Below, piece by piece: positions 10,797-25,219 of a DNA stretch of 46,452 bases (position 1 is its first letter; the number at the start of each line of letters is the position of its first letter). Both the position numbers and the translations under genes were made by a program. Source of the DNA: Acidobacteria bacterium AH-259-O06 (GTDB lineage Bacteria > Acidobacteriota > UBA6911 > RPQK01 > JADFOI01). A model generated the notes under the pieces. The model saw nothing but the letters and a program-made list of their open reading frames with translations. It searched no databases and was not told where the DNA came from. The stretch lies in contig JALLOM010000002.1 in assembly GCA_027717865.1 (NCBI GenBank), forward strand, positions 1 through 46,452, in the 5' to 3' direction.

Positions 10797-11257
10797 GCGG
10801 TCCTGTCAACATGGTTCAACTCGTGAGAGATTTGCCCTCCCGTCCCCGTGGAAGAGCTTGCATTGTCCTCACCCATGAGTATGGAGGCCAAAAAGAGTGG
10901 GCGGCGGAGTTGGCCCGCCAGACGGACTCCGAGCACCTCGACCTGCTGGAACTTTTCGCACAAGACAAAAAACTCAGCGGCAAGATTGGGCAGTTCCTGA
11001 TCCCCAGCCTTTTTGAGTTCTTGAAGAACCATGGCCAAGCCTCTGTTTTGGTTATTTCAGGTATGGAGTTCCTCAAGGCCACATGGGCCGGCCAATCGAA
11101 TGTCGTCGAACAGTTCGCCAGCCATGTGGAGACTTGGGACCAGAAGCCCTGCCTGCTCTTTGTTCTTCAATACGACAAGATCATCGCGACTCGCGAGTAT
11201 CGACGCTATCGTCAGTACACCTTTGTGGTCGATCAGAAGGAAACACTGGCACTATGA
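10793..11257 (+). CDS. Small 154-aa protein in the BrxB/BrxF position, with a degenerate P-loop-like segment
   Basis: ATGA overlaps at both ends (10793, 11254). CIVLTHEYGGQKEW sits where a Walker A would be, and VLVISGMEF resembles a Walker-B strand without the acidic pair. Confidence 0.6.
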   Translation: MSGPVNMVQLVRDLPSRPRGRACIVLTHEYGGQKEWAAELARQTDSEHLDLLELFAQDKKLSGKIGQFLIPSLFEFLKNHGQASVLVISGMEFLKATWAGQSNVVEQFASHVETWDQKPCLLFVLQYDKIIATREYRRYRQYTFVVDQKETLAL

Positions 11258-14200
11258 AGAATAACGGCCTGTTCAGCTCGCTTTTCATCGAGGAATTGAA
11301 AGACAGCGTCAAGCTCGACGACGCGGCCCAAGGCCGCATGGCCACACTGGCTCAGACATGGCGTACTCGCAACACCCAGGATACCGAGTCCCTGTGGGAG
11401 TCTTTCCTGAAACAGGCGTTGAGCTATCTTGAGTTCGTTCCACCCGGAAATCCAACCGCTCCAGGCGTTTACCCGCTTTATGAAGACTGGAGGTTCACAG
11501 ATTGCATCAGCGTCCTCTACCTCGCTCCGCCCGGATCGGACATTGACAATACATCAGTCGGAAATTTCTATCCCGCCAAACTTCTTGCGCGGCTTAAGGG
11601 ACGAAAACTCAACTGGGGAATTCTGACTGACGGTGCCAGCTGGCGGCTTTACTCCACCAAGAGTTCCAGACCATACGAAGATTATGTGGAACTTCCGTTA
11701 GAGGAAGCTTTGGAAGGATCGGATGAGGCCGAATACGGCCTTTTTGAGCGCTTCTTTCACAAGGATTCCTTCATTGCCGAAGAAACTGAGGGTACAGAGT
11801 ACGGGCAACAGGATGAATCCACCGCTATCTACAAGTGCCGCCTTGACCGCGACCGGGAGCAATCGGAACAGGTCCTCGATGAAGAGGTCAAAGCGCCGTT
11901 CCTTGCTCAGGTGGACGAGGTGCTGCAGTACATCTGCAACGGGTTCATTGTGGACACGCAAAAGAGCGGCGAAGAATACACGGAAGAGGAGCGAGGGGAA
12001 ATATTCGAAAGCGCCGCCAAACTGATCTACCGCTGCTTGTTCCTGTTCTATGCCGAGGCCCGCAGGCTGCTGCCGTCAGACCCGGACAAAGCCGATCTCT
12101 ACCGGCGGCACTCCGTGCAGGCGCTCTGCGAGGAGGCCCGCAAGTTCCGCTGGGGTGAACGCCGCGACACGGACCAGTATGATCTTTGGAAGCACCTGAA
12201 AGGCCTGATAAACGCCGTAAACGATGGTGACCCGGAATACGGCATCATGGGTTACAACGGCGGTTTGTTTGATGATGAAGAAGAGCGGTTCCTGGGGCAA
12301 CATCAACTGCGCAACGATTTTCTGTGCCGGGCGCTGTACCTGCTGGCGTTTGTGGAACCTTACGACAACGAACCGGACGAAGAATACGCCATACCGTACG
12401 AAGACCTGGAGGTTCGCCATCTCGGGGAGCTTTACGAGAACATACTGGAATACACGGTTCAGCTTGCCGACGCCGACCGCATCCGTCGCCGCACCAAAAA
12501 GGGTGTGGAAATGCTGTTGGTCTCCCAGACAACGAAAAAGACGGGTGACACGCTGATCAAAAAGGGAGATGTCTATTTCGGCGAGTCCGCGCTTGAGCGC
12601 AAACAGACGGGTTCCTATTACACTCCGGAATCACTGGTTCGCTTTCTCAATGAAAAAACAATCGTCCAGCCCCTTCGTGAAACCTTTGAACGGGAATACC
12701 GACAGCGATTCAAGGAGCTCCTGGAACAGGCCAGCAACGGACACGATGCCGGCACCCGTCGTGGGGCGGCCCAATCGGCTGCGGCACTTGTCGAGCGTTT
12801 TGTCGAAGAGGGGGTTCTAAACTTCAAGGTCTGCGATCCGGCCATGGGCAGCGGTCATTTTCTGGTGGATGCGGCCAACCAGATGGCCGGGCTGGTTGTT
12901 GCCCTGCTTGAGGAAGTGCCCCATGTCGAGGGGATAACGGTTTCGGTCACCAGTCGTCCCAACGACTGGCGGCGGCGTATCACCCGCCACTGCATCTACG
13001 GGGTCGATCTCAACCCGCTGGCTGTAAACCTGGCCAAGCTCTCGCTCTGGCTCAACTGCTTTGCCATCGAACATAAGCTGACCTTTCTCGATCACCATGT
13101 TCGCTGTGGAAACAGCCTGATCGGCATTCGATCACTCGATCAGCTTGCTTCCGTCCCGGAGCGCAAGAAAGAGAGCAAGAAAAAGAAAGACCCGCAAAGA
13201 CTGCTCTTTGATTACAACGATCTCTCGTCTGTCTTGACGGAGGCGGCCCAGAGAATTGCGTCTATTACTCAGATCGATGAGGACGACACCGATACCCAGA
13301 AGGCTGTTTTGGATGAAGCCCTGGAGGCCACATCCAACCTGCGCCCCCTGGCCGACCTGTACACGGCCTATCTGATGGACCCCGACATTCCAGTCGGCGA
13401 TTACAAGGAGATTTTCGAACGGCTTGCAAAGGGTAAGTCTGTCGCCAACACCCTGAATCCTGCCCTTCCTGAGATTCTGGAATCGGTAGATGCATATCGC
13501 GACTGGCACCACGTTTACCACTGGCCGCTGGAGTTTCCCGACGTGTTCGGTCCGGATGCGGTGGGCGGGTTCTCGGCAACCGTCGGCAATCCGCCGTGGG
13601 ATACCGTCTTACCCAACTCGCAGGAGTTTTTCTCAGCCTACGATCCTAAATTTCGCTCTTACAGAAAGCAGCAGGCCAAGCGAGTAGCTAAAATGCTAAT
13701 GAAAGATAACCCTGCTATTGCGAAAAAATGGGAGGACTGCGGAAACATGTTCTCCCAGCAAATCGCATATTTCAAGGAACCCATCAATTATAGCTCCATT
13801 GGGAAAATACACATCAATACTTATAAGCTCTTCCTGGAAAAGTTTTTCACTGTGCTTTGTAGTGGTGGCCGTATGGGCATAGTGGTACCCAGCGGTCTCT
13901 ACACCGACCAGGGCTGCGAACCTCTGCGGGAAGGGTTCTTCAATCAGAGTCGTATCGAGTTTCTCTACTGCTTTGAGAACCGCTGGCCTACTGTCTTCAC
14001 CGCCGTGGATGGCCGTTTCAAGTTCGTTACCTTCGGCACCCAAAAAGGCGGAAAAACCGACCGGTTCAAGTGTGCTTTCATGGAGCACGACCCGGAACGG
14101 CTGCCCATTATCGACGCGAGTGCTCTGCAATTGACATTCGAACAGGTCAGGAAATTATCCCCCGACACTTTAAGCATAATGGAGTTTGACAACGAGAGAG

Positions 14201-15180
14201 AGATAAACATTGCAGCAGCGATATATCACGATAATCCGCTCCTTGGAAACTACCTCAAAGCTAATTGGCAGTCAGCCTTTCAAGACGAGTTCAACATTAC
14301 ACATGATACTGAATTGTTTTTGACTGAAGAAGAGTGTTCAGGGGCAGATGTAACTCCGTTGTGGGAAGGAAAGGAAATCTGGATATTGACTAATGAGTTT
14401 GCTGCACCAACAAGATGGATGCTTCGGTCAAACACAAAGATAAAGCCAACAACTCAACATACCAGAGTGGTATACAGATCAGTAGCTTCGAACACAAACG
14501 AGCGGACATTGGTTCCTGCTATTATTCCCGCGAGCTTCCCCACAGGTAATTCTGTTGATGCGTGTCCTCTTCTCCCATCTGTTGCCATAAAGGTTGCCGT
14601 TATCACAGGATCTTTCGTGATAGATTGGATTCTTCGAAAGAAGGTCACGACAAATTTAAACAAATTCATCACCGCACAATTACCCATATTGGAAGAACTA
14701 AAGGACAACAATGCACCGAATATATTCGACTTGATCTTAGCGATGGGTAGTCGCCTGATATGTACGTCTTCAGCCTTCTCTACAATCTGGAATGATTGTT
14801 ACTCACAGAAATGGAATAACCAAGAATTCTGGTATGACAGCAATGCCCCCATCGACAGCTATGGCCCGGCCCACGAGCAGGAGATCCGCCGCTGCTTGCG
14901 GGACGAAGCCAAAAACCTGACTCCCGAATGGGGCCCACACTGCGGGGTGCATGATCGACTTCCCGACCGACGGGACACCGGTGACAGAGCTCAACTCCGT
15001 GCCGAGATCGACGCTTACGTGGCCCACCTTTACGATCTTTCGCGGGATGACTTCGCTTACATCCTTGACACCTTTCCGGTGCTCAAAAAGAAAGAGAAAA
15101 AGGCCTTCGGCGAGTTCATGTCCAAGCGCAAATGCCTGGAAGAATACGACCGGATAGGGAAAATTATGAATGCGGAATGA
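11254..15180 (+). CDS. pglX: BREX PglX-like N6-adenine DNA methyltransferase (Eco57I/type IIG-like architecture, no nuclease motif seen)
   Basis: ATG 11254 overlaps the upstream stop. Motifs are ILTDGASWRLY, YYTPESLV, motif I DPAMGSGHFL (12835-12864), motif IV NPPW (13588-13599) and the C-terminal tail AEIDAYVAHLYDLSRDDFAYILDTFP. Confidence 0.88.
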   Translation: MKNNGLFSSLFIEELKDSVKLDDAAQGRMATLAQTWRTRNTQDTESLWESFLKQALSYLEFVPPGNPTAPGVYPLYEDWRFTDCISVLYLAPPGSDIDNTSVGNFYPAKLLARLKGRKLNWGILTDGASWRLYSTKSSRPYEDYVELPLEEALEGSDEAEYGLFERFFHKDSFIAEETEGTEYGQQDESTAIYKCRLDRDREQSEQVLDEEVKAPFLAQVDEVLQYICNGFIVDTQKSGEEYTEEERGEIFESAAKLIYRCLFLFYAEARRLLPSDPDKADLYRRHSVQALCEEARKFRWGERRDTDQYDLWKHLKGLINAVNDGDPEYGIMGYNGGLFDDEEERFLGQHQLRNDFLCRALYLLAFVEPYDNEPDEEYAIPYEDLEVRHLGELYENILEYTVQLADADRIRRRTKKGVEMLLVSQTTKKTGDTLIKKGDVYFGESALERKQTGSYYTPESLVRFLNEKTIVQPLRETFEREYRQRFKELLEQASNGHDAGTRRGAAQSAAALVERFVEEGVLNFKVCDPAMGSGHFLVDAANQMAGLVVALLEEVPHVEGITVSVTSRPNDWRRRITRHCIYGVDLNPLAVNLAKLSLWLNCFAIEHKLTFLDHHVRCGNSLIGIRSLDQLASVPERKKESKKKKDPQRLLFDYNDLSSVLTEAAQRIASITQIDEDDTDTQKAVLDEALEATSNLRPLADLYTAYLMDPDIPVGDYKEIFERLAKGKSVANTLNPALPEILESVDAYRDWHHVYHWPLEFPDVFGPDAVGGFSATVGNPPWDTVLPNSQEFFSAYDPKFRSYRKQQAKRVAKMLMKDNPAIAKKWEDCGNMFSQQIAYFKEPINYSSIGKIHINTYKLFLEKFFTVLCSGGRMGIVVPSGLYTDQGCEPLREGFFNQSRIEFLYCFENRWPTVFTAVDGRFKFVTFGTQKGGKTDRFKCAFMEHDPERLPIIDASALQLTFEQVRKLSPDTLSIMEFDNEREINIAAAIYHDNPLLGNYLKANWQSAFQDEFNITHDTELFLTEEECSGADVTPLWEGKEIWILTNEFAAPTRWMLRSNTKIKPTTQHTRVVYRSVASNTNERTLVPAIIPASFPTGNSVDACPLLPSVAIKVAVITGSFVIDWILRKKVTTNLNKFITAQLPILEELKDNNAPNIFDLILAMGSRLICTSSAFSTIWNDCYSQKWNNQEFWYDSNAPIDSYGPAHEQEIRRCLRDEAKNLTPEWGPHCGVHDRLPDRRDTGDRAQLRAEIDAYVAHLYDLSRDDFAYILDTFPVLKKKEKKAFGEFMSKRKCLEEYDRIGKIMNAE

Positions 15181-15183: not shown

Positions 15184-16641
15184 ATGATGAATTTTAAAGA
15201 ATTAAAAGACATCATCGCGCGGGGTGAAGGTGAGCAGGTAGAGTTTAAACGTTCCACCGGCCAGCGAACCAGTGCGGCCAAGGCAGTCTGTGCCATGCTC
15301 AACGGAATTGGCGGATTTGTCGTGTTCGGTGTAACTGACAGGGGCAAGATTGTTGGACAGCAGGTAAGTGCCGGGACGCTTGAAGATATTGCTGCGGAAC
15401 TCAGGGAAATAGAGCCCCCCGCTTTTCCTGACATTGAAACCGTGGCCTTGAAGCAAGGAACCTCTGCTGTTGTGCTGACAGTCCCGGGGGGAGGGGGACC
15501 TTTTACTTTTGACGGACGGCCTTATCTCCGTCAGGGACCGACAACGATTATGATTCCGCGTGAAGAATACGAACGGAGGCTTGTGGAGCGACTTCATGCC
15601 ACGCGGCGCTGGGAGAATGAGCCGGTGCCGGAGGGCGTTTCCATCAAGGATCTGGATGCCGACGAGATTCAAATTACTCTGGACAATGCTATTCGGCTGG
15701 GACGACTCGAAGCCACTGACCGGCGAGACACCAGATCCATTCTCCGTGGTTTGGAACTGATTCACGAAGGCAATCTCCTGAACGCCGCAATAGCGCTTTA
15801 TGGCAAGACCGACCGTCTCAAGACGCTTTATCCGCAGATGGGTATTCGTCTGGCCCGTTTCCGTGGAAAAAACCGACTGGCCGATTTCTCAGACAACCGC
15901 CAATACTGGGGGCACGCCTTTGCACTCCTGCGCCGGGCTGAATCTTTCCTGATGGATCATGTCCCCATAGCCGGGCGGGTTCTGCCGGGGAAAATGGTCC
16001 GCGAAGACCAGCCCTGGTATCCGCCAGGCGCCACACGCGAAGCCCTGGCCAATGCCATTTGTCACCGCGACTACACGATACCGGGCGGTGCCGTGGCCCT
16101 CGCCATGTACGACGATCATCTGGAAATAACCAATCCCGGCGCCCTGCACTTCGGCATCACACCGGAAAAGCTGGCCAAACCCCATGAATCCAAACCGTGG
16201 AACCCTATTATTGCCAATGTCTTTTACCGGGCAGGCATTATCGAGCGCTGGGGCACCGGCACGCTGAACATTATTGACTGGTGCGAGGAAAACGGCAACC
16301 CCGAACCCACCTGGCAGGAGCAGGCCGGTTCTGTGTATGTGAAGTTCCTGCCCGCCGTTTTGCCCGATACTCCGGAAGACACAGGGGATGTTGGGACCAA
16401 GTTGGGACTAAGTCGGGATCAAGTTCAAATCATCCGCAACCTTCTGAATGATAAAGCTATTACGGATTTGATGGAACTTCTGGGACGAACAAACCGGACC
16501 AAGTTCAGGGACCAAGTTCTTAACCCCCTAATCAAGACGGGGTTTGTAGAAATGACCATCCCGGACAAACCCCGCAGCAGCAGGCAAAAATACCGACTTA
16601 CGGACAAAGGCAGAGAATCGTTGAGGGTAATACTTCCATGA
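15184..16641 (+). CDS. AlbA_2 (Schlafen-like) plus HATPase_c_4 plus C-terminal wHTH protein ('putative DNA-binding/ATP-binding' family)
   Basis: Motifs are EGEQVEFKRS (AlbA_2) and NAICHRDYTIPGGAVALAMYDDHLEITNPG (HATPase_c_4). It starts 3 nt after the pglX stop. Confidence 0.82.
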   Translation: MMNFKELKDIIARGEGEQVEFKRSTGQRTSAAKAVCAMLNGIGGFVVFGVTDRGKIVGQQVSAGTLEDIAAELREIEPPAFPDIETVALKQGTSAVVLTVPGGGGPFTFDGRPYLRQGPTTIMIPREEYERRLVERLHATRRWENEPVPEGVSIKDLDADEIQITLDNAIRLGRLEATDRRDTRSILRGLELIHEGNLLNAAIALYGKTDRLKTLYPQMGIRLARFRGKNRLADFSDNRQYWGHAFALLRRAESFLMDHVPIAGRVLPGKMVREDQPWYPPGATREALANAICHRDYTIPGGAVALAMYDDHLEITNPGALHFGITPEKLAKPHESKPWNPIIANVFYRAGIIERWGTGTLNIIDWCEENGNPEPTWQEQAGSVYVKFLPAVLPDTPEDTGDVGTKLGLSRDQVQIIRNLLNDKAITDLMELLGRTNRTKFRDQVLNPLIKTGFVEMTIPDKPRSSRQKYRLTDKGRESLRVILP

Positions 16642-16749: not shown

Positions 16750-19700
16750 ATGTCGAGAATAGCAGAAGTTGTCAAACTGAAATCCGGCTACGCGAATTTC
16801 GTGCAGCTGAAAAGCGCTTTTGAGGCGGCCCAGGAGAACGCGGACCGGATGGCCATGTACCGACCGACCAAGGCTCACCGCGTGGCGTTTGAACGTATTT
16901 GTCGAGGGCTCTACCAGCCCAACGACAAGAAGTTCTATCTACTCAGCGGCTCGTATGGAACCGGTAAATCGCACCTGTGCTTGATGACGGCGAATGTTTT
17001 GAGCCGGTCCAGTGGAGACCCGGAGATTGCCGGTTTCCACGAGAACTATGCCAGGCTCGATCCCGAGAAGGCCAAGCTGCTCAAGAATATCCGCAAGGAC
17101 GGCCAGTACCTGGTGGCCATCTGTGACTACCACTCGGGGAGGCACTTCGAAGATGTTGTCATGAAAGCGATCTTCGAAGCCTGCAAGGCCAAGGGCCTGA
17201 ATGCCGGGGTGGAAACGGAGTTTGACGAGGCGGAACGTCAACTGGACGAGTGGGAGAAAAAGGGAGACAAGGGCGGCATCCGCAATTTCTACCAGGACTT
17301 TAGCAAAGCACTCGAATCAGTCGCACCTGGCCTCACCGCGGATCAGCTTCGCGCCGGGCTCAAGAACTACGACTCAAATGTGCTTGAGAAATTCCGTGCC
17401 GCCTTCAAGGCAATGATGGGAGGCGTTGAGTTTCAGGCCCAGGCCGGCAATCTGATTCCCATACTCAAAAAACTGGTTAAGAGCCAGGCTTTCAAAGAGC
17501 GCTTCAAAGGACTGGCAATCTTCTTCGACGAGTTTGGCTTCACCCTGGAAAAGGCAGGCTACTCAAAGGACATCCTGCAGGGATTCATGGAAACGATTTG
17601 TAAGAACGAACCGAACGTTCTCTTTGTAGGATGTATTCACAAGGATTTCAAATCCTATGCCGATCGTTTCAGCAAAGACGATGCGGCAGTCATGAGCGCC
17701 CGAATCACCCAGGTGGACCTGCTCAACGAAGGAATCGAGGAGATCATCGGGGCCATCGTCGAAACGGATAAGAAGAGCAATGCCTGGAAGAAAGAAATCG
17801 CGCCCAAGACGGGCGTCTTTGATCAATTGGTGCCGCCATGTAAGTCACTTGACCTGTTCCCCTGGATCGAAGATGTGAACCGTATTCGCGAACGGGTACT
17901 GGAGGATATCTATGGTGTGCATCCCATGGCCCTGTCCTGCTTGCTGAATCTGTCCTCGGAAATCGGTTCGGATGCGCGCAGCACCTTCACCTTTTTCTCG
18001 GGCGATGTGGGCGGAGAAAAGGGTTCATACGCGGGTTTTATTGAGAATGCCGAGGTGACGGTGGCTGGCGGGAAGCTGAACCTGTACACGGTGGATCAGC
18101 TGTTTACGTTCTTCAAAAAAGAACTCTCGCAAAAGAATCCGGAACTTCGGGAACGGCAGCGGCAGTTTGTCAACGGCTTTTACGCCAGCATGGACGCCCT
18201 GCGAAAGGCCGCTGAAGGAGAGCTGCTGGGGTTTCAGGAGGATGAGCGTATCCAGGTTCTCAGAACAATCCTTATCTACCAGCTCTGCCAGATTCCGACG
18301 AGCTTGGAAAACATTCAGTTTGGACTGTATTGCTTGAGCAACTCTGAAAAAAACCAGATTAAGCGATACTTGAAGGACCTGGTCAAAAACGGCGCTGTCT
18401 TCTTCCGGCAGCAGTCGAAAACCTATGAGCTGGCCGCAAGCACCGGCCAAGACCCCTATGATCTGATTGAGCGCTTTGTTGCCGACACCAAATTGCATCC
18501 ATCGGACACGGTGGCAGCTTTCCTCGAAGAATCCGGCGAAAAGCGTCTCTCGGAATATTCCGAAGCCAAGGGATACAACCTGCCCTTTGGGGAGGACAAA
18601 CGCTTTCGTACCCGTTTTGTACGAGCGAAGGATCTCGGGGATGCGCTTTGGGAGGAAATCCGTACAGACTATGAAGAGAGCCGTAACAAACCTGCGAAGA
18701 GCTTTGAAGGAACGCTCGTCTATGTACTGTGCGAAGACGAAGGAGAGATCAATGTGGCAAGGGAGGCGGCCAAGACCATTTCGGATGACAATGTGGCCCT
18801 GGCTGTGCCGCACGCACCTCAGCCCTTTACTGAAACCCTGCTTCGAGTGAAAGCATGCCGTCATTATCTGCCGCCAAACGAGGCGGAAAAGATAAGCGCC
18901 CAGACCGAGTCACGGCTGCGGGATATCTTTGAGAACCCCGAAGACGGATACCTGCCGACGCTGCATCGCGTGTTTCGAGACACCATGGAGGGCAGCGGAG
19001 CCTGCTGGTATTGGCAGGGAGGGAAAGTCCTGGTGGATAAACCCAAGCAATCCCACAAACCCGCGGACATGCTGTGCGACGAGCTGTTTAAGAAACGCTG
19101 CCGTATTAAGCACCCGGATCTGAATTTCTGCCACGACGAAAAATGGCGCACCGGGAAGAACATGGCTTTGAAGCAGGCCGTAGGCGTTTTGCTGGAAGCA
19201 GAAAGGGTTCTGATTGATAACGGGAACCCTGACAATCACGGCCAGAAGAGGTACCTGGAAAAAGTTCTGCTGAAAGGCGCAGGGGCCCTCAAGAAAGCCG
19301 GTTCAGAAGGTGTGGTTTCATATTTCGCGTGCGAGACCGATCCTGCCAAGCTCCACGATGATTTTCCGGTCTTCAAAGAACTGTGTGATCGGCTGTCAAA
19401 TCTCAATCCTGGGGAAATGTTCTCGGTTGGCGCTTTTCTTGAGGATGCAAAGGATGCGCCTTACGGCGTTGGTGGTACACCTTTGATGCTATCGCTGGCT
19501 CATGTCATTCGGGCCTATGGCGAGCGATTGATTGTGTACAAAGACTCCACCAGGATGGTGGAGCAGCCTCTTCGGTCCTATGACGATTTGGTTAAGATCG
19601 TGTCAGACCCTGCCGCCAAGACAGTCTTTGTGGTCCGTGATATTTCACAGGCCCAAATCACCCTCATCGATCTGGTCGCCAAAGCAGTTGACGCACCGCC

Positions 19701-20793
19701 GCTGAAGCATGGCGAAACCCGATCTCTTAACTCCGCCTTTGAGAAGCTCAAACAATGGTGGAGCGGTTTGCCAGCTGTTGCCAAAGTGATTAGCCTGTAT
19801 GAAAAAGATCGACAGGCTCGTTTGAACGCGCTCAAGAGTCTGATGGACGGATTGACCGGCAGCGTGGACCGATTTGATTTCATGCTCGAGCAATTGCCGG
19901 CGGTTTACAGTGGCGGTCCGGTTGGGGACACCCTCACAGAAAAGGACGCCAAAACCATCTGTGATGCCTTTGCCCAGGATGTGACACTTCTCAACTCGGG
20001 CGAACAGATTGCACAAGGCCAAGTGGCGCAGGCTGTTTGTGATATCTACGGTGCCAAAGGCGACATGATCGAATGTGAAAATGTGGTTAGTAAATGGTAC
20101 GCAAACTTGAACCCAAGCCAACGCGATCCACACAAGTGCGACCATGAGGATGCGAAACAGTTCCTTGTGCGCCTGGCCGATCAGTCCGTCAGTTTCAGTA
20201 CCAAGATTGTTAATCTTCTGTCGAAGGATTACGGATTTGGAGCGGTAGCGGAGTGGACATCGCTTCACATCAAGCACTACGCAGCCAAACTAAAACAGGC
20301 CAAGGCAGAGATCGATAAAGCCAAGCCGGTCGTCTATAGTCCGGCTGTTGATGAGGGCGTGCATGAAATTCGGGAATCACAGGAGATGTATGTCGAAATC
20401 CCCAAAGGGGCAGCTCGATTGATCTACACCCTGGATGGAAGCGACCCCCGTCACTCGGATAATGCCCAAACAACCGACAACAAGCTTGATCTGATCAGTC
20501 TTCTTGAAGACCGGCCCAATGTGAAGATAAAAATGCGGGCCGTGGACCAGGACGGCAATGCCAGCGATCTTGTCAGTGTCGAGCTGGTCAGCAAGGAACG
20601 AAAATACGAGATACAGGTGGACTCGAAACTCTTCGGTGAGAAGGAAGCGACGTTTAAGTGCCCGGATGACACGGAAGGGTTAGTGGCCGTCCTTAAATCC
20701 GTAATCAGCTATGGAGTGAAAAGGAAATTGCTGAGTAAGGGCAGGGCTCAAAAGATTGAAACGCTATTGAGTGACTTGAATAAGGATAAATGA
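16750..20793 (+). CDS. brxC: BrxC/PglY-like large P-loop NTPase
   Basis: 1347 aa. Walker A is GSYGTGKSH (16948-16974) and Walker B is LAIFFDEFG. Size and position next to PglZ fit BrxC. The C-terminus carries an IYTLDGSDP module. Confidence 0.72.
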   Translation: MSRIAEVVKLKSGYANFVQLKSAFEAAQENADRMAMYRPTKAHRVAFERICRGLYQPNDKKFYLLSGSYGTGKSHLCLMTANVLSRSSGDPEIAGFHENYARLDPEKAKLLKNIRKDGQYLVAICDYHSGRHFEDVVMKAIFEACKAKGLNAGVETEFDEAERQLDEWEKKGDKGGIRNFYQDFSKALESVAPGLTADQLRAGLKNYDSNVLEKFRAAFKAMMGGVEFQAQAGNLIPILKKLVKSQAFKERFKGLAIFFDEFGFTLEKAGYSKDILQGFMETICKNEPNVLFVGCIHKDFKSYADRFSKDDAAVMSARITQVDLLNEGIEEIIGAIVETDKKSNAWKKEIAPKTGVFDQLVPPCKSLDLFPWIEDVNRIRERVLEDIYGVHPMALSCLLNLSSEIGSDARSTFTFFSGDVGGEKGSYAGFIENAEVTVAGGKLNLYTVDQLFTFFKKELSQKNPELRERQRQFVNGFYASMDALRKAAEGELLGFQEDERIQVLRTILIYQLCQIPTSLENIQFGLYCLSNSEKNQIKRYLKDLVKNGAVFFRQQSKTYELAASTGQDPYDLIERFVADTKLHPSDTVAAFLEESGEKRLSEYSEAKGYNLPFGEDKRFRTRFVRAKDLGDALWEEIRTDYEESRNKPAKSFEGTLVYVLCEDEGEINVAREAAKTISDDNVALAVPHAPQPFTETLLRVKACRHYLPPNEAEKISAQTESRLRDIFENPEDGYLPTLHRVFRDTMEGSGACWYWQGGKVLVDKPKQSHKPADMLCDELFKKRCRIKHPDLNFCHDEKWRTGKNMALKQAVGVLLEAERVLIDNGNPDNHGQKRYLEKVLLKGAGALKKAGSEGVVSYFACETDPAKLHDDFPVFKELCDRLSNLNPGEMFSVGAFLEDAKDAPYGVGGTPLMLSLAHVIRAYGERLIVYKDSTRMVEQPLRSYDDLVKIVSDPAAKTVFVVRDISQAQITLIDLVAKAVDAPPLKHGETRSLNSAFEKLKQWWSGLPAVAKVISLYEKDRQARLNALKSLMDGLTGSVDRFDFMLEQLPAVYSGGPVGDTLTEKDAKTICDAFAQDVTLLNSGEQIAQGQVAQAVCDIYGAKGDMIECENVVSKWYANLNPSQRDPHKCDHEDAKQFLVRLADQSVSFSTKIVNLLSKDYGFGAVAEWTSLHIKHYAAKLKQAKAEIDKAKPVVYSPAVDEGVHEIRESQEMYVEIPKGAARLIYTLDGSDPRHSDNAQTTDNKLDLISLLEDRPNVKIKMRAVDQDGNASDLVSVELVSKERKYEIQVDSKLFGEKEATFKCPDDTEGLVAVLKSVISYGVKRKLLSKGRAQKIETLLSDLNKDK

Positions 20794-23216
20794 GGAGCTG
20801 GTGTGTGACTGTGGAAGATAAAAAGCAGGTATCGGTCAGCTATATCGGAGATCTGGCTCACACTCCTCCCGATGACGTCCTTTTGGTAGAGCGTGATGAG
20901 GATTATGTGCGGGCGTGCCAGGAGTTATCACCCAGAGGGTCATCGGGTGCCGGTCTGAAAGTGTGGGTGCGTTCAAAGAACCACTTTGCCTGGCTGCGGG
21001 ATTTCATCGAGCAGATTGGTTGCCACTCCATTTTCAAGGAAATGACGGCCCGCCTGGTATTGGCTGAACAGTGGAATGTGCGGGTGCGTGATTGGCTGAC
21101 CGATGCAGATGTTCTCGAACAGAGCCTGTTGGAGATAGAGGTTGATTCTCAGAAAGAACAGACGAGTTTCACCAATCGTTTACTGATACATCTCCTGGGC
21201 CCTGCATTTCAATCTGATATTCTCAATACGACAGACCTCGTCGATGTGATCAAAGCGCTCGTTAGTGATGACGCGAAAGCCGCATTCAAGCAATACCCTG
21301 TACTGTATCGCTGTTTAGAAACCAAATGTGAAAATTGGGCGGGGGGTAGTAATGAGACATGGGTTAAAGATATCAGCAACCGGCTTTATGAAAATGCAGG
21401 CGAAATCTGGCAGTGGCTCAGCCTATGGGCCTGCCTGCACGGCTACCCCGAGAAGCTGCTGGAATACGTGCTGGCTCCAGAGCAGGTTCTATTTGTACGG
21501 AAGATCCCTGCTGAGGGGGTTTACGATTTGCCCCTGGAGCCCACGGCCAGGGAACAGATACTGACCCAGGTTGAACTGCTTTTTGAAGAAATACGGAAGC
21601 AAGTAACTTCAAGCGATGAGTTTCAGAAAGTCGTGGGATGGACTTCCGGAAGGCTCTTTCAAGAATATCATTTTGTTTCAAGAATTCTCAAAGGCAATCT
21701 TTTTTCTCCAACTAAAGAAGACGTTCAAAAGGTCCAGGCCAAGTTCAGGTCTTGTCCCGGTGTGAGTGAAAACAAACTGAATTCCCTCCGCTACTATGTC
21801 ATGCCCAGCCGCCCAGCCCTGCTCGGGCCGGAAGAAGAATGGAGTAGCGTTGAGTGGATTCGATGGACAACGGAGGAATATGCCCCGTACCGCACCTGGC
21901 AGGTTCATAACGGCCATTATGATGAAGAATTAGAGAAAACAGTAGCACGCTTTTCAGAATGGTTTATTGAGGAATATGCGTCCATCCACAAAGATTCAAA
22001 CCTCAGCCTGATTCACTGCTTGAGAATCCTCTCATCGAGCGGTTCGGAAGACGAATTGTCGATCATCCTCCTTGTTGATTGCCTTCCTTTGACTTTTGTA
22101 AGCCTCCTGGACGACGCGCTTCGAAACGTCGGCTTTAGTCGGCATGATTTACATTATCGTTTCGCAGCGTTGCCGACCATTACGGAATACAACAAACCTG
22201 TTCTCCTGAGCGGAGAGTGGCAGAATGATGCAGGGAATTACGAGGCCATTCTCAAGGCGCGTGCAAAGGCCGACTGGAACAACAAACAGGTTGTATACCT
22301 GAACAACCTGAAGGCGATGTCCGAGATGGCGGCTCCGCAGGAGGCTACCATCGTCCTTCTTAATTTCCTAGACGGGGATGAGCTGCTTCACTCTGACGTG
22401 GAATCAAAAAACACATCGCATGAGCAGGAGTTGCATCGTCTCTTTGCACGTATGGCGGAGTCTGTAAACAGGCTGTCAAAGGAGTGGGCCGGGCCAAGGG
22501 AGCATTTCAGCGTTTATGTTGTAACGGATCACGGTGCCTGCCGCATTCTTGAAGAAGAAAAACGGTCTTTCGATTCTACGGTCGTCAATAAGCTGTTTCC
22601 TGACGAGAAGCACCGGTTCGCAGCGGTAGACGAAAAACAAGTGGATGATATTCCTGACAACCTGTGGGCATTGGGGCATAAATTCAAGCAGCCCTTTGTG
22701 TCGGATGACAAAATATTTTTCTTACCCAAAGGCCACAATACCGTTCGCCAGTCCGGCAGAGCAAAGGGCTACCTGCATGGGGGGGGTACCCCGGAAGAGG
22801 TTATCGTTCCAACAGCTATATACAAACTGGTAAAAGCTGCCTGGAAAACGCCTGCTGCGCGTTTTCTTAACCTGGACTTGGTAAAAGAAACGGGTAGGGC
22901 CAAATTCTATATCCAACGAGTCGTGACTCTGAAGGTTGAGATACAGAACCCGAACGCTATGGACATCCGTATTCTTCGAGCCAGTGTAACGTCCCCTGAA
23001 ACTGACCTCAAGACTTGTGAAGTTGCGGTAGTACCGGCTGGAAGCGTGAACGCCCTTCAAATGAGCTGCTATTTCAAGAAAGTGGCTTTGGGGGAAAAGA
23101 GTCTGGAAATCGAGATCGCATATGAAGTATCCGGCGAACAGCACACTCTTTCCCTCACGCTTGAATGTGAATTCAAATCAGCCATGGCGGGCGGGTTCAG
23201 TTTGAGAGACCTTTGA
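20790..23216 (+). CDS. pglZ: PglZ alkaline-phosphatase-superfamily protein
   Basis: ATGA overlap with brxC; an in-frame GTG at 20805 behind a GAGGAG is an alternative start. Motifs are ILLVDCLPL, ALPTITEYNKPVLLSG, VVTDHGA and YLHGGGTPEEVIVP. Confidence 0.88.
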   Translation: MRSWCVTVEDKKQVSVSYIGDLAHTPPDDVLLVERDEDYVRACQELSPRGSSGAGLKVWVRSKNHFAWLRDFIEQIGCHSIFKEMTARLVLAEQWNVRVRDWLTDADVLEQSLLEIEVDSQKEQTSFTNRLLIHLLGPAFQSDILNTTDLVDVIKALVSDDAKAAFKQYPVLYRCLETKCENWAGGSNETWVKDISNRLYENAGEIWQWLSLWACLHGYPEKLLEYVLAPEQVLFVRKIPAEGVYDLPLEPTAREQILTQVELLFEEIRKQVTSSDEFQKVVGWTSGRLFQEYHFVSRILKGNLFSPTKEDVQKVQAKFRSCPGVSENKLNSLRYYVMPSRPALLGPEEEWSSVEWIRWTTEEYAPYRTWQVHNGHYDEELEKTVARFSEWFIEEYASIHKDSNLSLIHCLRILSSSGSEDELSIILLVDCLPLTFVSLLDDALRNVGFSRHDLHYRFAALPTITEYNKPVLLSGEWQNDAGNYEAILKARAKADWNNKQVVYLNNLKAMSEMAAPQEATIVLLNFLDGDELLHSDVESKNTSHEQELHRLFARMAESVNRLSKEWAGPREHFSVYVVTDHGACRILEEEKRSFDSTVVNKLFPDEKHRFAAVDEKQVDDIPDNLWALGHKFKQPFVSDDKIFFLPKGHNTVRQSGRAKGYLHGGGTPEEVIVPTAIYKLVKAAWKTPAARFLNLDLVKETGRAKFYIQRVVTLKVEIQNPNAMDIRILRASVTSPETDLKTCEVAVVPAGSVNALQMSCYFKKVALGEKSLEIEIAYEVSGEQHTLSLTLECEFKSAMAGGFSLRDL

Positions 23217-25219
23217 TGGAGGCAAGAAAAAACATGATGTCATTTGAATGCAAAGCAAAAGACTATTACGGCGAGGTCGTTATCAACAAAGGTCTCATGG
23301 GAAAGGCCGGATTCGGCGCTCGAGCGATTCCCGTCTACGTTGGCGAATGGATCATCAGCCAGTTCATGGACGGAGATGAACTTACGGATGACGGCAGAAC
23401 CGAGATTGTCAATACGATCTCAAAATACTTACCGCAAAAAGCGGACAAGAATATGATCCTGAATCGCCTTATGGAGCAGGAAGAGGTCCGCATTCTGGAT
23501 GACTTTCGGGTCAACGTGAACCTGGAGCGCCACACGCACGATCTGAGCATTCCGCTGCTGGATGTCAGCAATGGGATGGTGCAAAAGGATATCATTGACA
23601 ACAACCCCATGCTCCTAAAAACGGGCATGTGGGGTCTGGGAACATTGCGGTATGTGCCCCCTGACGGCGAGGACGTGAAGAAAGGCCAAATATGGATGGT
23701 CGAATTCAAAGCGTTCCAAACCCCAGGGGTTGATTTAGACTATTTCCGGGATTCACGTAAACACTTCGATATAGATGAGTGGATAGACCTCTTGGTATCG
23801 AGTTGTCAATTCAATCCCGACGTTCACCGGTTGTCGCAGAAACTCTTGCTTCTCAGCAGAATAATCCCCTTGGTCGAGCCGAGGGTCAATATTACAGAAC
23901 TGGCACCGAAAGGTACTGGGAAGTCGTTCGTGTTCGATAATATCAGCCGATATGCAGCCGTGATACCAGGCGGGAAACTCTCGGCACCTGCTTTGTTTTT
24001 CAACAGCAACACAAAGCAAATCGGTCTCATTCCACGATATGATGTTGTTGTAGTCGATGAAATCCAAAAGATTCATACCGATGCGTCCGGCGAGGCCATG
24101 GCGGCTCTCAAGATGTATCTTGAAAGCGGCAGATATCGCAGAGCAACAGGAGACCTGGGAACGTCAGAGTCCGGCTTTGTGATGCTCGGCAATATCACGC
24201 TGAGTGTCAACCGGTTGCCGCTGTATGAAAGCGACGGGATATTTAAGGAACTGCCGACCGCCCTTCAGGAATCGGCCTTCATAGATCGAATCCACGGGCT
24301 GATTGAAGGGTGGTTCATGCCGCGTGTGTCCAGGAACACGCCCTCAAGAACGCTTGGATTCAAGGGAGATTTCTTTAGCGAGGTGTTACATGAGCTGCGT
24401 GTCGACCTGCGGTACGCGGACTATGTCTCACGAAGTTTGCACCTGCCGCAATGTGAGGATATGCGCGATAACAAAGCTATCGCTCGGTTGGCCGAAGGAT
24501 ATCTAAAGCTGCTTTTCCCCGACCTTGAACTAAGTGAAGAAGAATTCATTTCATACTGTGTGAATCCTGCAGTTCGGATGCGGCAGCAAATTCGGGATGA
24601 ATTGTCAAAGATCGACCAGGAGTACAAGTGGGTAACGATCAAGAGCGAGAGCCCTGACGACTTTCAGCTGTCTCATCCAGATGAACGGCCGAATCCCGAA
24701 CAAGAAGCGCAGAAGGTCGATCCATTGTCACCAGATCGAAGTCCCGAAGAAAAGACTCTGGACCTGGTTGAGGGGCAGAGGGGAATCTCGTATGAAAAAC
24801 TCTTCCTTCCCTATCTCAAGGGTGCAAAATCAATCAAGATATGTGATCCATACATTCGGTTGCAGTATCAAATCTACAATCTTATGTCTTTCTGCGAGAT
24901 GCTGGACCCATCGGAAGGGACATTGAAACTCGACCTTGTGACGGCATGTGATTCTTACCTGGAAACTGAGCTGAAAGACAAGCTCAATGAATTGAAAAAG
25001 GGACTAAGCCGGGATCATATCGAGTTTGATTATGTTTTAGAGGACAACCTCCATGATCGATGGATAGAAACAGACACAGGGTGGAGAATAATCTTGGGCC
25101 GTGGCCTGGATATGTTCCAGAAACCGGAGGACAAATTTACCCTGGGCTTCATGGATCAAACGAAACGGAAATGCAAGGCAACAACGATCACGTATACACG
25201 AGCAAAGGCAGTGCTGTGA
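23216..25219 (+). CDS. BrxL-like AAA+ ATPase lacking the Lon protease domain; C-terminal MIT_C/PLD-like domain
   Basis: ATG 23216 overlaps the pglZ stop (TGATG). The BrxL-type N-terminus is VVINKGL..IPVYVGEWIISQF. Walker A is APKGTGKS (23903-23926) and Walker B is YDVVVVDEIQ, with AFIDRIHGLIEGW downstream. The C-terminus has DPYIR (24845-24859) and HDRWIETDTGWRIILGRGLDMF (25052-25117). Confidence 0.8.
   Translation: MEARKNMMSFECKAKDYYGEVVINKGLMGKAGFGARAIPVYVGEWIISQFMDGDELTDDGRTEIVNTISKYLPQKADKNMILNRLMEQEEVRILDDFRVNVNLERHTHDLSIPLLDVSNGMVQKDIIDNNPMLLKTGMWGLGTLRYVPPDGEDVKKGQIWMVEFKAFQTPGVDLDYFRDSRKHFDIDEWIDLLVSSCQFNPDVHRLSQKLLLLSRIIPLVEPRVNITELAPKGTGKSFVFDNISRYAAVIPGGKLSAPALFFNSNTKQIGLIPRYDVVVVDEIQKIHTDASGEAMAALKMYLESGRYRRATGDLGTSESGFVMLGNITLSVNRLPLYESDGIFKELPTALQESAFIDRIHGLIEGWFMPRVSRNTPSRTLGFKGDFFSEVLHELRVDLRYADYVSRSLHLPQCEDMRDNKAIARLAEGYLKLLFPDLELSEEEFISYCVNPAVRMRQQIRDELSKIDQEYKWVTIKSESPDDFQLSHPDERPNPEQEAQKVDPLSPDRSPEEKTLDLVEGQRGISYEKLFLPYLKGAKSIKICDPYIRLQYQIYNLMSFCEMLDPSEGTLKLDLVTACDSYLETELKDKLNELKKGLSRDHIEFDYVLEDNLHDRWIETDTGWRIILGRGLDMFQKPEDKFTLGFMDQTKRKCKATTITYTRAKAVL

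What the first reader, a model, noticed from the sequence alone, without database searches (positions are those of the whole stretch)
23216..25219. BrxL-type AAA+ protein with the Lon protease domain swapped for a MIT_C/PLD-like domain
Residues ~1-470 follow the BrxL pattern:
- N-terminal ..VVINKGL..IPVYVGEWIISQF.
- Walker A APKGTGKS at 23903-23926.
- LFFNSNTKQIGLIPRYDVVVVDEIQ, then MYLESGRYRR and AFIDRIHGLIEGWFMP.

In place of the S16 Lon protease domain there is an acidic/Pro-rich linker (~24640-24757). A ~150-aa module follows (24758-25216). It carries DPYIRLQYQIYNLMSFCE and HDRWIETDTGWRIILGRGLDMFQKPEDKFTLGF..TTITY.

From memory this matches the phospholipase-D-like MIT_C domain of eukaryotic MITD1 (DPYIR .. 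HDR.I.F.NGW.IK.GRGLD.F).

If so, the terminal BREX component would have changed chemistry. It would be a possible nucleic-acid- or membrane-binding PLD fold rather than a protease.
Basis: partly seen in the sequence, partly recalled or inferred. Interest (0 to 1): 0.72.

Follow-up and report, generated by a model that had tools for sequence, protein, structure and literature searches.

The report
BrxL motor with PLD-nuclease tail

Summary
ORF 23216-25219 (+) encodes a 667-aa protein with BrxL_N, BrxL_ATPase and a full-length MIT_C domain (Pfam E=1.4e-44). The tail matches human MITD1 directly (E~1e-25). Its AlphaFold model superposes on MITD1 at TM 0.86-0.89. There is no Lon_C match.

The novelty claim fails:
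- More than 120 database clusters share the architecture, and NCBI already names them BrxL.
- A 2023 PADLOC BrxL model includes the tail.
- Li et al. (NAR 2025) reported MIT_C on many BrxL proteins.
- Rakesh & Krishnan (NAR 2026) counted this tail in 1,030 of 2,913 BrxL-bearing type 1 BREX taxa and predicted it to be an active nuclease.
- The Lon-like domain it replaces is not a protease, so there was no protease chemistry to change.

Most likely function (inferred): a DNA-loading AAA+ ring carrying a PLD-type nuclease whose active site forms when two tails pair. No biochemical test of such a BrxL was found.

One less ordinary point is the host operon. It runs HTH, DUF4007 protein, degenerate P-loop protein, type IIG-like methyltransferase, variable slot, SspC-like ATPase, divergent PglZ, BrxL. 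It looks like a methylation-based relative of type 4 BREX. It is conserved across more than 12 phyla and I did not find it described.

The parts
23216..25219 (+). brxL gene, MIT_C/HKD-tailed form, 667 aa. A TTG at 23213 is an alternative start.
   Evidence: ORF list. Pfam BrxL_N + BrxL_ATPase + MIT_C. TIGR02688 above its cut-off. PADLOC BrxL PDLC02508 at 1.7e-132.
23264..23653 (+). BrxL N-terminal DNA-binding region, residues 17-146 (HTH-like helices followed by an OB-like beta-barrel).
   Evidence: Pfam PF20442 at 2.8e-26. The full-length AF2 model shows helices and then strands 91-166 at pLDDT ~85-90. The domain names follow PMC12839542.
23693..24631 (+). MCM/Lon-clade AAA+ ATPase core, residues 160-472. 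Walker A K236/S237 lies within 23903-23926. Walker B D281/E282 is at 24056-24061.
   Evidence: Pfam PF13337 at 2.7e-100. Alignment to 8EMC places E282 opposite the Walker B residue E280. K236, S237, D281 and E282 are invariant in 121 of 121 clade members.
24632..24781 (+). Acidic/Pro-rich flexible linker, residues ~473-522.
   Evidence: It has the lowest conservation in the protein, 74% mean identity against 92% for the ATPase. The model has a low-confidence segment at 496-500.
24782..25198 (+). MIT_C domain, residues 523-661: a PLD-superfamily, HKD-like putative nuclease domain. D544 of DPYIR is at 24845-24847. The H613-D-R615-x4-D620 motif is at 25052-25075.
   Evidence: Pfam PF16565 at 1.4e-44. 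MITD1 match at 1e-25. TM 0.86-0.89 to 4A5Z/2YMB. H613 and R615 are invariant and D544 is D/E in 136 of 139 diverse representatives; H-x-R-x4-D is kept in 123 of 139.
20790..23216 (+). Divergent PglZ-like protein (808 aa), translationally coupled to brxL.
   Evidence: There are only weak matches: NCBIfam BREX_PglZ_4 at 1.4e-10, below its cut-off, PADLOC PglZ at 9.8e-8, and no Pfam PglZ hit. It lies directly upstream of brxL in every related locus.
16750..20793 (+). SspC/BrxC-like large P-loop ATPase (1347 aa).
   Evidence: PADLOC SspC at 1.9e-32 and BrxC at 1.3e-13. It is syntenic in all related loci.
15184..16641 (+). Gene in the variable slot: Schlafen/AlbA_2 + HATPase_c_4 + Fic-like_C protein. 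Probably an accessory gene or regulator, not part of the core.
   Evidence: Pfam. In relatives the slot holds 0-3 different genes.
11083..15180 (+). Type IIG-like N6-adenine DNA methyltransferase (Eco57I/MmeI type), the PglX analogue. The true start is probably near 11254.
   Evidence: Pfam Eco57I, MmeI_Mtase and N6_Mtase. PADLOC DrmMI at 2.8e-74 and type IIG at 2.2e-72, against PglX at 4e-8. It is syntenic. Several homologue matches begin at residue 58.
10793..11257 (+). Conserved 154-aa protein, a degenerate (inactive-looking) P-loop NTPase. It may be the BrxB analogue.
   Evidence: It is present at 45-95% identity in about 50 loci. hhalign to the Walker-A-bearing 161-aa protein of plasmid pIAD-21 gives probability 89.5%, E=2e-6. 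There is no Pfam or PADLOC hit and no match to the pAL1 BrxB.
9309..10796 (+). RadC_N-like + DUF4007 protein (SspB / BrxP C-terminus / BrxA-like DNA-binding module).
   Evidence: Pfam DUF4007 at 7e-13 and UPF0758_N at 2e-9. PADLOC BrxP C-terminus and SspB. It is syntenic upstream of the MTase.
9160..9366 (+). Mad1-like excisionase-type HTH protein, probably the first gene and regulator of the cassette.
   Evidence: PADLOC mad1 at 2e-12. It is conserved directly upstream of the DUF4007 gene in 14 metagenomic loci.

Best explanation
The gene encodes the MIT_C-tailed ("HKD-endoDNase") form of BrxL. This is the ATP-dependent, DNA-encircling AAA+ component of a BREX-type phage-exclusion system.

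**Shown here**
- The N-terminal DNA-binding region and the AAA+ core are intact, with invariant Walker A and B motifs.
- A variable linker joins them to a PLD-superfamily domain homologous to MITD1.
- That domain keeps an invariant His-x-Arg-x4-Asp motif and the Asp of DPYIR.

**Inferred**
- Like Acinetobacter BrxL, the protein assembles as hexameric rings on double-stranded DNA when ATP is present.
- One PLD-family active site needs two His motifs. MITD1's MIT_C homodimerises, and DruE uses two tandem MITD1-like domains for one nuclease site. Pairs of BrxL tails would therefore build composite phosphodiesterase sites.
- The pairs could form between two rings meeting tail to tail, which is where the Lon-like domain pairs rings in canonical BrxL. 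Alternatively they could form between neighbouring subunits of one ring.
- These sites would cut the DNA held by the motor.
- The operon's methyltransferase marks host DNA. The DUF4007 protein, the SspC-like ATPase and PglZ recognise unmodified DNA and license BrxL, which acts as a motor-coupled nuclease effector.

The tail is not an innovation of this locus. It is one of the two common C-terminal forms of BrxL.
For: **Domain identity**
-.

**Conservation**
- H613 and R615 are invariant in 139 diverse MIT_C representatives.
- D544 is D/E in 136 of 139.
- H-x-R-x4-D is kept in 123 of 139.
- All of these residues, plus Walker A and B, are invariant in 121 clade members.
- MIT_C averages 79% identity within the clade, against 74% for the linker.
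- Between distant BrxL lineages the tail is more conserved than the motor (40-47% against 26-31%).

**Position of the motif residues**
- D544 follows strand 2 and HDR precedes strand 5. This matches the catalytic site described for MIT_C and PB-PLD1 (PMC12065111).

**Experimental precedent**
- The two MITD1-like PLD domains of DruE form a nuclease site containing Asp, His and His-x-Arg residues.
- D1740A abolishes ssDNA cleavage, and the D1917A and R1918A mutants lose phage defence (bioRxiv 10.64898/2026.05.13.724313).

**Fusion partners**
- Other bacterial partners of MIT_C are nucleic-acid binders: IF2_N, S1, PC4, Helicase_C and AlbA_2.

**Dimerisation**
- MITD1 dimerises through this domain (PMC3496609).
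- The C-terminal domain of canonical BrxL pairs rings around DNA (PMC10164562).

**Published prediction**
- The same nuclease role is predicted for BrxL-HKD in PMC12839542.

**Operon linkage**
- brxL is strictly linked to PglZ, the SspC-like ATPase and the MTase in about 60 related loci.
Against: - No nuclease activity has been shown for any BrxL-MIT_C protein or for MITD1. A literature search found only predictions.
- The motif has Arg where classical PLD enzymes have Lys, and the downstream G-S-x-N element is not kept in register.
- Sequence searches do not connect the tail to DruE or to any solved nuclease. Only MITD1 is found, and the similarity to catalytic PLD enzymes is fold-level only (TM 0.4-0.5).
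- The dimer geometry, and hence a composite active site, could not be modelled here.
- The full-length AF2 model is poor in the AAA+ core.
- MITD1's known property is membrane binding.
Confidence: 0.6

Rival explanations
1. The tail is a non-catalytic assembly module. MIT_C takes over the job of the inactive Lon-like domain, pairing rings or subunits through its homodimer interface. The conserved His, Arg and Asp residues stabilise the fold or bind a ligand.
For: - The C-terminal domain of canonical BrxL is structural and mediates tail-to-tail ring dimerisation (PMC10164562).
- MITD1 dimerises through MIT_C, and no enzymatic activity is known for it (PMC3496609).
- The tail occupies the same position.
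- A tail-less BrxL sits in a related cassette, so the tail is dispensable in some systems.
Against: - His613 and Arg615 are absolutely invariant, and the full H-x-R-x4-D motif is largely kept (123 of 139), across 139 very diverse proteins in many architectures. This is the pattern expected of a catalytic site rather than an interface.
- Equivalent residues are required for DruE nuclease activity and defence.
Confidence: 0.2
2. The tail is a phosphodiesterase with a non-DNA-cleaving substrate. Candidates include a nucleotide or cyclic-nucleotide signal, a phospholipid, or a protein-DNA adduct as in TDP1.
For: - The PLD superfamily includes lipid enzymes and TDP1. The best catalytic fold matches are phosphatidylserine synthase and PLD1/2.
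- PB-PLD1 and MIT_C resemble TDP1 structurally (PMC12065111).
Against: - The domain is tethered to a DNA-encircling motor, and elsewhere to nucleic-acid-binding domains.
- The DruE precedent is DNA cleavage.
Confidence: 0.1
3. The tail is a membrane-targeting module as in human MITD1. It would hold BrxL at the inner membrane, where phage DNA enters.
For: The MITD1 PLD-like domain binds membranes. This rests on the title and abstract of Hadders et al. 2012 as cited; the paper itself was not held.
Against: - Bacterial MIT_C fusion partners are nucleic-acid binders. None is a recognisably membrane-associated module, apart from single PKD/Ig-type cases.
- Only 4 of 139 representatives carry the eukaryotic MIT domain.
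- The invariant catalytic-type residues are not explained by lipid binding.
Confidence: 0.05

Closest known systems
BrxL with C-terminal HKD-endoDNase ("HRD") domain of type 1 BREX (Rakesh & Krishnan, NAR 2026, PMC12839542; first noted by Li et al., NAR 2025, PMC12065111). Examples are Arthrobacter pAL1 WP_011928051.1 and Thioflavicoccus pTHIMO01 WP_015282545.1.
   Same: - The domain order is identical: HTH/OB N-terminus, AAA+ core, linker, MIT_C.
- The HDR motif and the Asp are the same.
- The PADLOC model (PDLC02508), the NCBIfam model (TIGR02688) and the NCBI product name are the same.
   Different: - Identity is only 26-30% in the N+ATPase part and 40-43% in the tail.
- Those proteins sit in BrxA-BrxB-BrxC-PglX-PglZ-BrxL operons.
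- The window's partners are instead a DUF4007 protein, a degenerate P-loop protein, a type IIG-like MTase, an SspC-like ATPase and a very divergent PglZ.
Acinetobacter BrxL with an inactive Lon-like C-terminal domain (PDB 8EMC/8EMH; Shen et al. 2023, PMC10164562).
   Same: The N-terminal domain and AAA+ core are homologous over residues 16-467 (E=5e-53), with Walker A and B conserved. It has the same position and role as the last gene of a BREX operon.
   Different: Its C-terminal 200 residues have a Lon/RadA-like fold, where the window has MIT_C. The DNA-contact residue K287 is not conserved; it aligns to D289 in the window's protein (read off the alignment).
Short, tail-less BrxL of type 4 BREX, and of the related cassette on Abditibacteriota plasmid pIAD-21 (AP024153).
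   Same: - The pIAD-21 BrxL is 55% identical over N+ATPase, closer than any type 1 BrxL in hand.
- Its operon has the same parts: MTase, DUF4007, small P-loop protein, SspC-like ATPase, PglZ, BrxL.
- The window's N+ATPase scores 406 bits on the 482-position PADLOC BrxL model.
   Different: There is no C-terminal domain. True type 4 systems use a PAPS-reductase (BrxP) phosphorothioation module rather than a methyltransferase (PMC12839542; PMC12914056).
Human MITD1 C-terminal PLD-like domain (PDB 2YMB, 4A5Z).
   Same: Identity is 34-35%, TM 0.86-0.89 and rmsd 1.6 A. It shares DPYIR, HDR and GRGLD, and the domain dimerises.
   Different: MITD1 is a eukaryotic ESCRT-III cofactor with an N-terminal MIT domain. 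It has Asn at the position of D620 (alignment). Its known property is membrane binding, not catalysis.
Druantia DruE C-terminal tandem MITD1-like PLD nuclease (bioRxiv 10.64898/2026.05.13.724313) and Menshen NsnC PB-PLD1 (PMC12065111).
   Same: A MITD1-like PLD fold is attached to an NTP-driven DNA motor in a defence system. The active site is built from Asp plus His-x-Arg elements. In DruE, mutagenesis has validated it as a nuclease. The tail gives a weak direct hit to PADLOC NsnC (6.8e-6).
   Different: DruE is an SF2 helicase with two PLD domains in one chain. Neither a PADLOC scan of the tail nor a PDB-wide profile search returned a DruE match.

Membership tests
BrxL (BREX AAA+ component; TIGR02688 / PF13337 + PF20442) | N-terminal BrxL_N domain plus BrxL-type AAA+ ATPase scoring above the curated thresholds | tested here: met
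   PF20442 scores 92.5 bits (cut-off 28.2). PF13337 scores 335.6 bits (cut-off 25). TIGR02688 scores 440.8 bits (cut-off 329.3).
BrxL (BREX AAA+ component; TIGR02688 / PF13337 + PF20442) | Intact Walker A and Walker B motifs | tested here: met
   GTGKS (K236/S237) and VVVDE (D281/E282) are invariant in 121 of 121 homologues. E282 aligns with the Walker B residue E280 of 8EMC.
BrxL (BREX AAA+ component; TIGR02688 / PF13337 + PF20442) | Encoded next to pglZ as the terminal gene of a BREX-type operon | tested here: met
   A PglZ-like gene lies directly upstream with a 1-nt overlap. The PglZ-BrxL adjacency holds in all related loci.
BrxL (BREX AAA+ component; TIGR02688 / PF13337 + PF20442) | ATP-dependent hexamer or heptamer assembly on dsDNA | not testable with these tools
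   Known only for Acinetobacter BrxL (PMC10164562). Here it is inferred from homology.
MIT_C domain (PF16565) | Full-length match to the Pfam model above the gathering score | tested here: met
   151.9 bits against a cut-off of 25, covering model positions 1-141 of 142.
MIT_C domain (PF16565) | Same fold as the MITD1 C-terminal domain | tested here: met
   The AF2 model has pLDDT 95.6. Foldseek to 4A5Z/2YMB gives TM 0.86-0.89 and rmsd 1.6 A.
PLD superfamily (HKD) phosphodiesterases/nucleases | H-x-K-x4-D catalytic motif | tested here: inconclusive
   The window has H613-x-R615-x4-D620, with Arg in place of Lys. His and Arg are invariant, and Asp is kept in 123 of 139 representatives. The literature regards the substitution as conservative. 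The downstream G-S-x-N element is not kept in register.
PLD superfamily (HKD) phosphodiesterases/nucleases | Two HKD motifs brought together (tandem domains or a dimer) to form one active site | not testable with these tools
   The tool predicts only monomers. Indirect support comes from the MITD1 dimer and the DruE tandem domains.
PLD superfamily (HKD) phosphodiesterases/nucleases | Phosphodiesterase or nuclease activity | not testable with these tools
   No experiment on any BrxL-MIT_C protein was found.
Lon protease S16 domain (Lon_C) | Lon_C fold with the Ser-Lys catalytic dyad | tested here: not met
   There is no Lon_C hit at E<=0.01. The C-terminus is MIT_C. The TIGR02653 Lon-type BrxL model scores 253.6 bits, below its cut-off of 628, and matches only residues 14-468.
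BREX type 1 system | BrxA (PF08849/DUF1819), BrxB (DUF1788), BrxC, PglX, PglZ and BrxL recognisable by their family models | tested here: not met
   - No BrxA or BrxB family hit appears in the cassette.
- PglX models score far below their cut-offs (44.6 against 500).
- No BREX-1 PglZ model hits, and BrxC matches are weaker than SspC matches.
- tblastn against the type 1 operons of pAL1 and pTHIMO01 finds only BrxL plus two short marginal matches, one to PglZ and one to the MTase.
- Functional analogues of all six parts are present.
BREX type 4 system | BrxP with a PAPS-reductase (phosphorothioation) domain, plus BrxC/SspC-like ATPase, PglZ and a short BrxL | tested here: not met
   The DUF4007 part, the SspC-like ATPase and the best-hit PglZ_4 model point towards type 4. 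However, there is no PAPS-reductase domain, a type IIG-like methyltransferase is present, and BrxL carries a tail.

The most novel reading that the evidence does not exclude
The BrxL tail is known, but the operon around it may be a BREX subtype that has not been formally described. It would be a methylation-based sister of type 4 (phosphorothioation) BREX.

- **Composition.** Mad1-like HTH, RadC_N-DUF4007 protein, degenerate P-loop protein, type IIG-like MTase, variable accessory slot, SspC-like ATPase, highly divergent PglZ, BrxL-MIT_C.
- **Spread.** It is found across more than 12 phyla.
- **Unusual conservation.** BrxL stays 73-96% identical while its partners drift to 39-60%.
- **Conflict with the literature.** This would contradict the published statement that HKD-tailed BrxL is specific to type 1 BREX.
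- **Possible role.** The motor-nuclease may be the constant effector of the system, with the other parts diversifying.
Probability: 0.4. Interest if true: 0.5.

Novelty: already known. Interest (0 to 1): 0.25.

Why it matters
How BREX stops phage is still unresolved. A BrxL that carries a real nuclease would give a direct restriction mechanism for about a third of type 1 systems, and for the cassette seen here. The point has already been raised in the literature (NAR 2025 and NAR 2026), so this window adds only another member.

Two things are of modest additional value:
- The tailed BrxL occurs in a type-4-like, methyltransferase-bearing cassette that existing family models barely recognise.
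- The very high conservation of this BrxL across phyla makes it a convenient candidate for the missing biochemical test.

The strong bacterial-human similarity of MIT_C (34-35% identity) also bears on whether human MITD1 is, or descends from, an enzyme. That question too has been raised before.

Tried and rejected
- **Diverged Lon protease tail.** Rejected. There is no Lon_C hit, and the tail is a full-length MIT_C.
- **Chance resemblance to MITD1.** Rejected. E is 1e-25 by sequence and TM is 0.86-0.89 by structure.
- **JAB/E1 genes upstream as part of the system.** Rejected. They are absent from all related loci.
- **154-aa protein as a canonical BrxB.** hhalign to the pAL1 BrxB gave nothing (probability 0.7%). 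It does match a P-loop protein in the pIAD-21 cassette.
- **A single gain of the tail by a short type-4-like BrxL.** Not supported. Tailed proteins at 76% and 50% N+ATPase identity bracket the tail-less pIAD-21 protein at 55%, so loss is equally likely.
- **Exact look-up of the window protein.** Not on record.
- **Hadders et al. 2012 (PMC3491508).** Not held, so the MITD1 dimer geometry and active-site discussion could not be read.
- **Supplements of PMC12839542.** They do not list taxa, so the paper's classification of this clade could not be checked.
- **Profile search of the PDB.** It found only MITD1, with no solved BrxL-MIT_C or DruE.
- **Viral structure library.** Only weak generic PLD hits.
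- **Full-length AF2 model.** Too weak in the AAA+ core (pLDDT below 50 for most of residues 225-366) to use for docking arguments.
- **Boundary scans.** No terminator-like site after brxL and no tRNA in the window.
- **Base composition.** There is no sharp boundary. The 3' half of the cassette has a slightly lower GC content, 0.50 against 0.53-0.58 in the flanks.

Full report
**1. The observation**

The ORF is real. It runs from 23213 (TTG) or 23216 (ATG) to 25219 on the + strand and gives 667 aa from the ATG. Its ATG overlaps the stop codon of the upstream gene by one base (TGATG), which suggests translational coupling.

Domain and structure evidence:
- Pfam finds BrxL_N (residues 17-146, 2.8e-26), BrxL_ATPase (160-472, 2.7e-100) and MIT_C PF16565 (523-661). 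The MIT_C match covers 141 of 142 model positions at 1.4e-44. No Lon_C family appears.
- NCBIfam's BrxL equivalog TIGR02688 is passed (440.8 bits against a cut-off of 329.3). The Lon-type BrxL model TIGR02653 is not passed, and it covers only residues 14-468.
- Against PDB sequences, residues 16-467 align to Acinetobacter BrxL 8EMC (5e-53). Residues 511-660 align to human MITD1 2YMB/4A5Z (about 1e-25).
- An AlphaFold2 model of the tail, built on 139 diverse homologues, has pLDDT 95.6.
- That model superposes on MITD1 with TM 0.86-0.89, rmsd 1.6 A and 34-35% identity. Catalytic PLD-superfamily enzymes follow at E~1e-4.

**2. How common is the architecture?**

It is very common.
- A search of 5.8 billion proteins returned 2,727 hits at E<=1e-10. 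Each of the 120 best clusters (81-96% identical, 640-669 aa) carries the same three Pfam domains. Those with NCBI names are already called "BREX system Lon protease-like protein BrxL".
- A scan of one genome per species found the gene at 69-95% identity in 32 loci from more than a dozen phyla.
- PADLOC's 2023 BrxL model PDLC02508 includes the tail. The window's C-terminus matches model positions 533-696 of 698 at 1.6e-43.
- In PLSDB, 315 plasmids encode a BrxL N+ATPase relative. Of these, 23 (about 7%, from many genera) also encode the MIT_C tail, and nearly all of the 23 are annotated brxL.
- Two of them sit in textbook type 1 BREX operons. Arthrobacter pAL1 has BrxA-BrxB-BrxC-PglX-PglZ-BrxL, and Thioflavicoccus pTHIMO01 has a comparable set.

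**3. The literature**

- Li et al. [quoted passage not shown] They note a conserved acidic residue after strand 2 and an HDR motif before strand 5, and propose that BrxL and MITD1 may be enzymes.
- Rakesh & Krishnan (NAR 2026, PMC12839542) report that the Lon-like domain is replaced by this "HKD-endoDNase" in 1,030 of 2,913 BrxL-bearing type 1 BREX taxa. They describe a Lys-to-Arg ("HRD") motif and predict an auxiliary nuclease effector.
- The same paper and Shen et al. (2023, PMC10164562) establish that canonical BrxL's Lon-like domain lacks the Ser-Lys dyad. It acts to pair two rings tail to tail around DNA.

I found no experimental test of a BrxL-MIT_C protein.

**4. What the tail probably does**

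An exhaustive search of 1.84 billion representatives with the tail alone found 1,125 clusters at E<=1e-3. I examined 139 diverse representatives.
- His613 and Arg615 are invariant. Asp544 (of DPYIR) is Asp or Glu in 136. The full PLD-type signature H-x-R-x4-D is kept in 123.
- In the model, Asp544 follows strand 2 and HDR precedes strand 5. This matches the published description of the site.
- Fusion partners other than BrxL (15 of 139) are mostly nucleic-acid binders: IF2_N, S1, PC4, Helicase_C and AlbA_2. Only 4 carry the eukaryotic MIT domain.
- Within the window's clade, the Walker A/B residues and almost all of the putative catalytic residues are invariant in all 121 sequences; R615, R651 and C653 each differ in one. 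The tail averages 79% identity against 74% for the linker.
- Between distant BrxL lineages, the tail is more conserved than the motor (40-47% against 26-31%).

The key experimental precedent is the Druantia effector DruE. Its two tandem MITD1-like PLD domains form one pocket lined by Asp, His and His-x-Arg residues. D1740A abolishes ssDNA cleavage, and the D1917A and R1918A mutants lose defence (bioRxiv 10.64898/2026.05.13.724313). In addition, MITD1 dimerises through this domain (PMC3496609).

From this I infer the following; none of it is shown.
- BrxL-MIT_C loads on DNA as an ATP-dependent ring.
- Pairs of tails build composite phosphodiesterase sites. The pairs could form between rings, where the Lon-like domain pairs rings in canonical BrxL, or between neighbouring subunits.
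- These sites would cleave the enclosed DNA.

Rival explanations are a purely structural pairing module, a phosphodiesterase with a non-DNA substrate, and membrane targeting as in MITD1. They are listed with their tests in the rivals section.

**5. The surroundings**

Synteny analysis of 32 genome loci and 78 metagenomic loci defines a conserved cassette:

| Window coordinates | Gene |
|---|---|
| 9160-9366 | Mad1-like HTH |
| 9309-10796 | RadC_N + DUF4007 protein |
| 10793-11257 | Conserved 154-aa protein |
| ~11254-15180 | Type IIG-like methyltransferase |
| 15184-16641 | Variable slot (here a Schlafen/AlbA_2 protein); relatives hold 0-3 genes |
| 16750-20793 | SspC/BrxC-like ATPase |
| 20790-23216 | PglZ-like protein |
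| 23216-25219 | BrxL-MIT_C |

- The 154-aa protein is a degenerate P-loop NTPase. hhalign gives 89.5% probability to a Walker-A-bearing homologue in a related cassette. By position and nature it could be the BrxB analogue, but it shows no similarity to a canonical BrxB.
- Apart from BrxL, the components are barely recognised by BREX family models. The ATPase scores better as SspC than as BrxC. PglZ hits only the type 4 model, well below its cut-off. The MTase scores as DrmMI or type IIG rather than PglX.
- tblastn against true type 1 operons recovers only BrxL plus two short marginal matches, one to PglZ and one to the MTase.
- A distant version on Abditibacteriota plasmid pIAD-21 has MTase-DUF4007-P-loop-SspC-like-PglZ and a tail-less BrxL. 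That BrxL is 55% identical to the window's motor.
- Tailed BrxLs at 76% and 50% motor identity bracket the tail-less one, so the tail has been gained or lost more than once.

The cassette therefore looks like a methylation-based relative of type 4 (phosphorothioation) BREX that carries the tailed BrxL. The 2026 survey describes that combination as type-1-specific, and I did not find it described. One paper mentions a brxL-brxZ-sspB-methyltransferase cluster in passing (PMC12914056). The supplementary taxon lists were not available, so I could not check how the survey classified these loci. This remains a possibility, not a finding.

**6. Verdict**

The domain call and the swap are right. The "changed chemistry" premise and the novelty claim are not.
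- The feature is already known and annotated, and its proposed nuclease role is still untested.
- Interest is low for the finding as stated. The unusual cassette and the exceptional conservation of this BrxL add a modest amount.

Noticed in passing
window 5707-8282 (+): This is a four-gene Bil-like ubiquitin-like conjugation set. It comprises an 80-aa Ubl-like ORF (5707-5949), an E2/BilB-like protein (5957-6409, PADLOC 1.4e-5), a JAB/BilC-like protein (6289-6933, 2.6e-13) and an E1/BilD-like ThiF protein (6900-8282, 7.8e-9). It is a separate defence module and is not syntenic with the BREX-like cassette elsewhere.
   Followed up: partly
window 9160-25219 (+); loci L035-L112: The whole cassette is conserved across more than 12 phyla: Mad1-like HTH, DUF4007 protein, degenerate P-loop protein, type IIG-like MTase, slot, SspC-like ATPase, PglZ, BrxL-MIT_C. 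BREX type 1-6 family models barely recognise it. It may be an undescribed methylation-type relative of type 4 BREX.
   Followed up: partly
window 10793-11257 (+): A conserved 154-aa ORF overlaps the annotated start of the MTase ORF. It encodes a P-loop NTPase with degenerate Walker A and B motifs (THEYGGQKE where the pIAD-21 homologue has GPPLSGKS). No family model hits it. The MTase probably starts near 11254.
   Followed up: partly
loci L001-L032 and L035-L112 compared with window 16750-25219: BrxL evolves much more slowly than its operon partners. In L019, for example, BrxL is 73% identical, the SspC-like ATPase 60%, the MTase 53% and PglZ 39%. This is unusual for a defence gene. It suggests a constant motor/effector alongside diversifying recognition parts.
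   Followed up: partly
window 15184-16641 (+) and the equivalent slot in L002-L029: The gap between the MTase and the SspC-like ATPase is a variable accessory slot. It is empty in L003, L016 and L023. It holds a Schlafen/AlbA_2-HATPase_c_4 protein here and in some relatives, and two or three unrelated genes in others.
   Followed up: no
window 5377-5604 (+): A 75-aa protein matches PADLOC phage-defence candidate PDC-S16 at 3e-41.
   Followed up: no
window 802-1657 (-) and 4018-5258 (-): There is a PIN toxin with a MazE/AbrB-type antitoxin (802-1657) and an HTH_3 repressor with a Peptidase_M78/IrrE-like protein (4018-5258). Both pairs are typical defence-island or mobile-element cargo.
   Followed up: no
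window 25442-27938: An HTH_32 transposase fragment (25442-25684) is followed by a GH127 beta-L-arabinofuranosidase on the minus strand (25893-27938). This marks the right edge of the defence island. No terminator-like site follows brxL, and there is no tRNA in the window.
   Followed up: no
window 8307-8909 (+): This 200-aa ORF is Pro/Arg-rich and of low complexity, with no family hit. Only a 34%-coverage match appears in two loci. It is probably not a real gene.
   Followed up: no
alignment A1 (MIT_C representatives): Ten of 139 MIT_C representatives have Asn instead of Asp at the +7 position of H-x-R-x4-D. Human MITD1 has Asn at the same position in its pairwise alignment with the window's tail. 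Some lineages may have lost catalysis while keeping the fold.
   Followed up: partly
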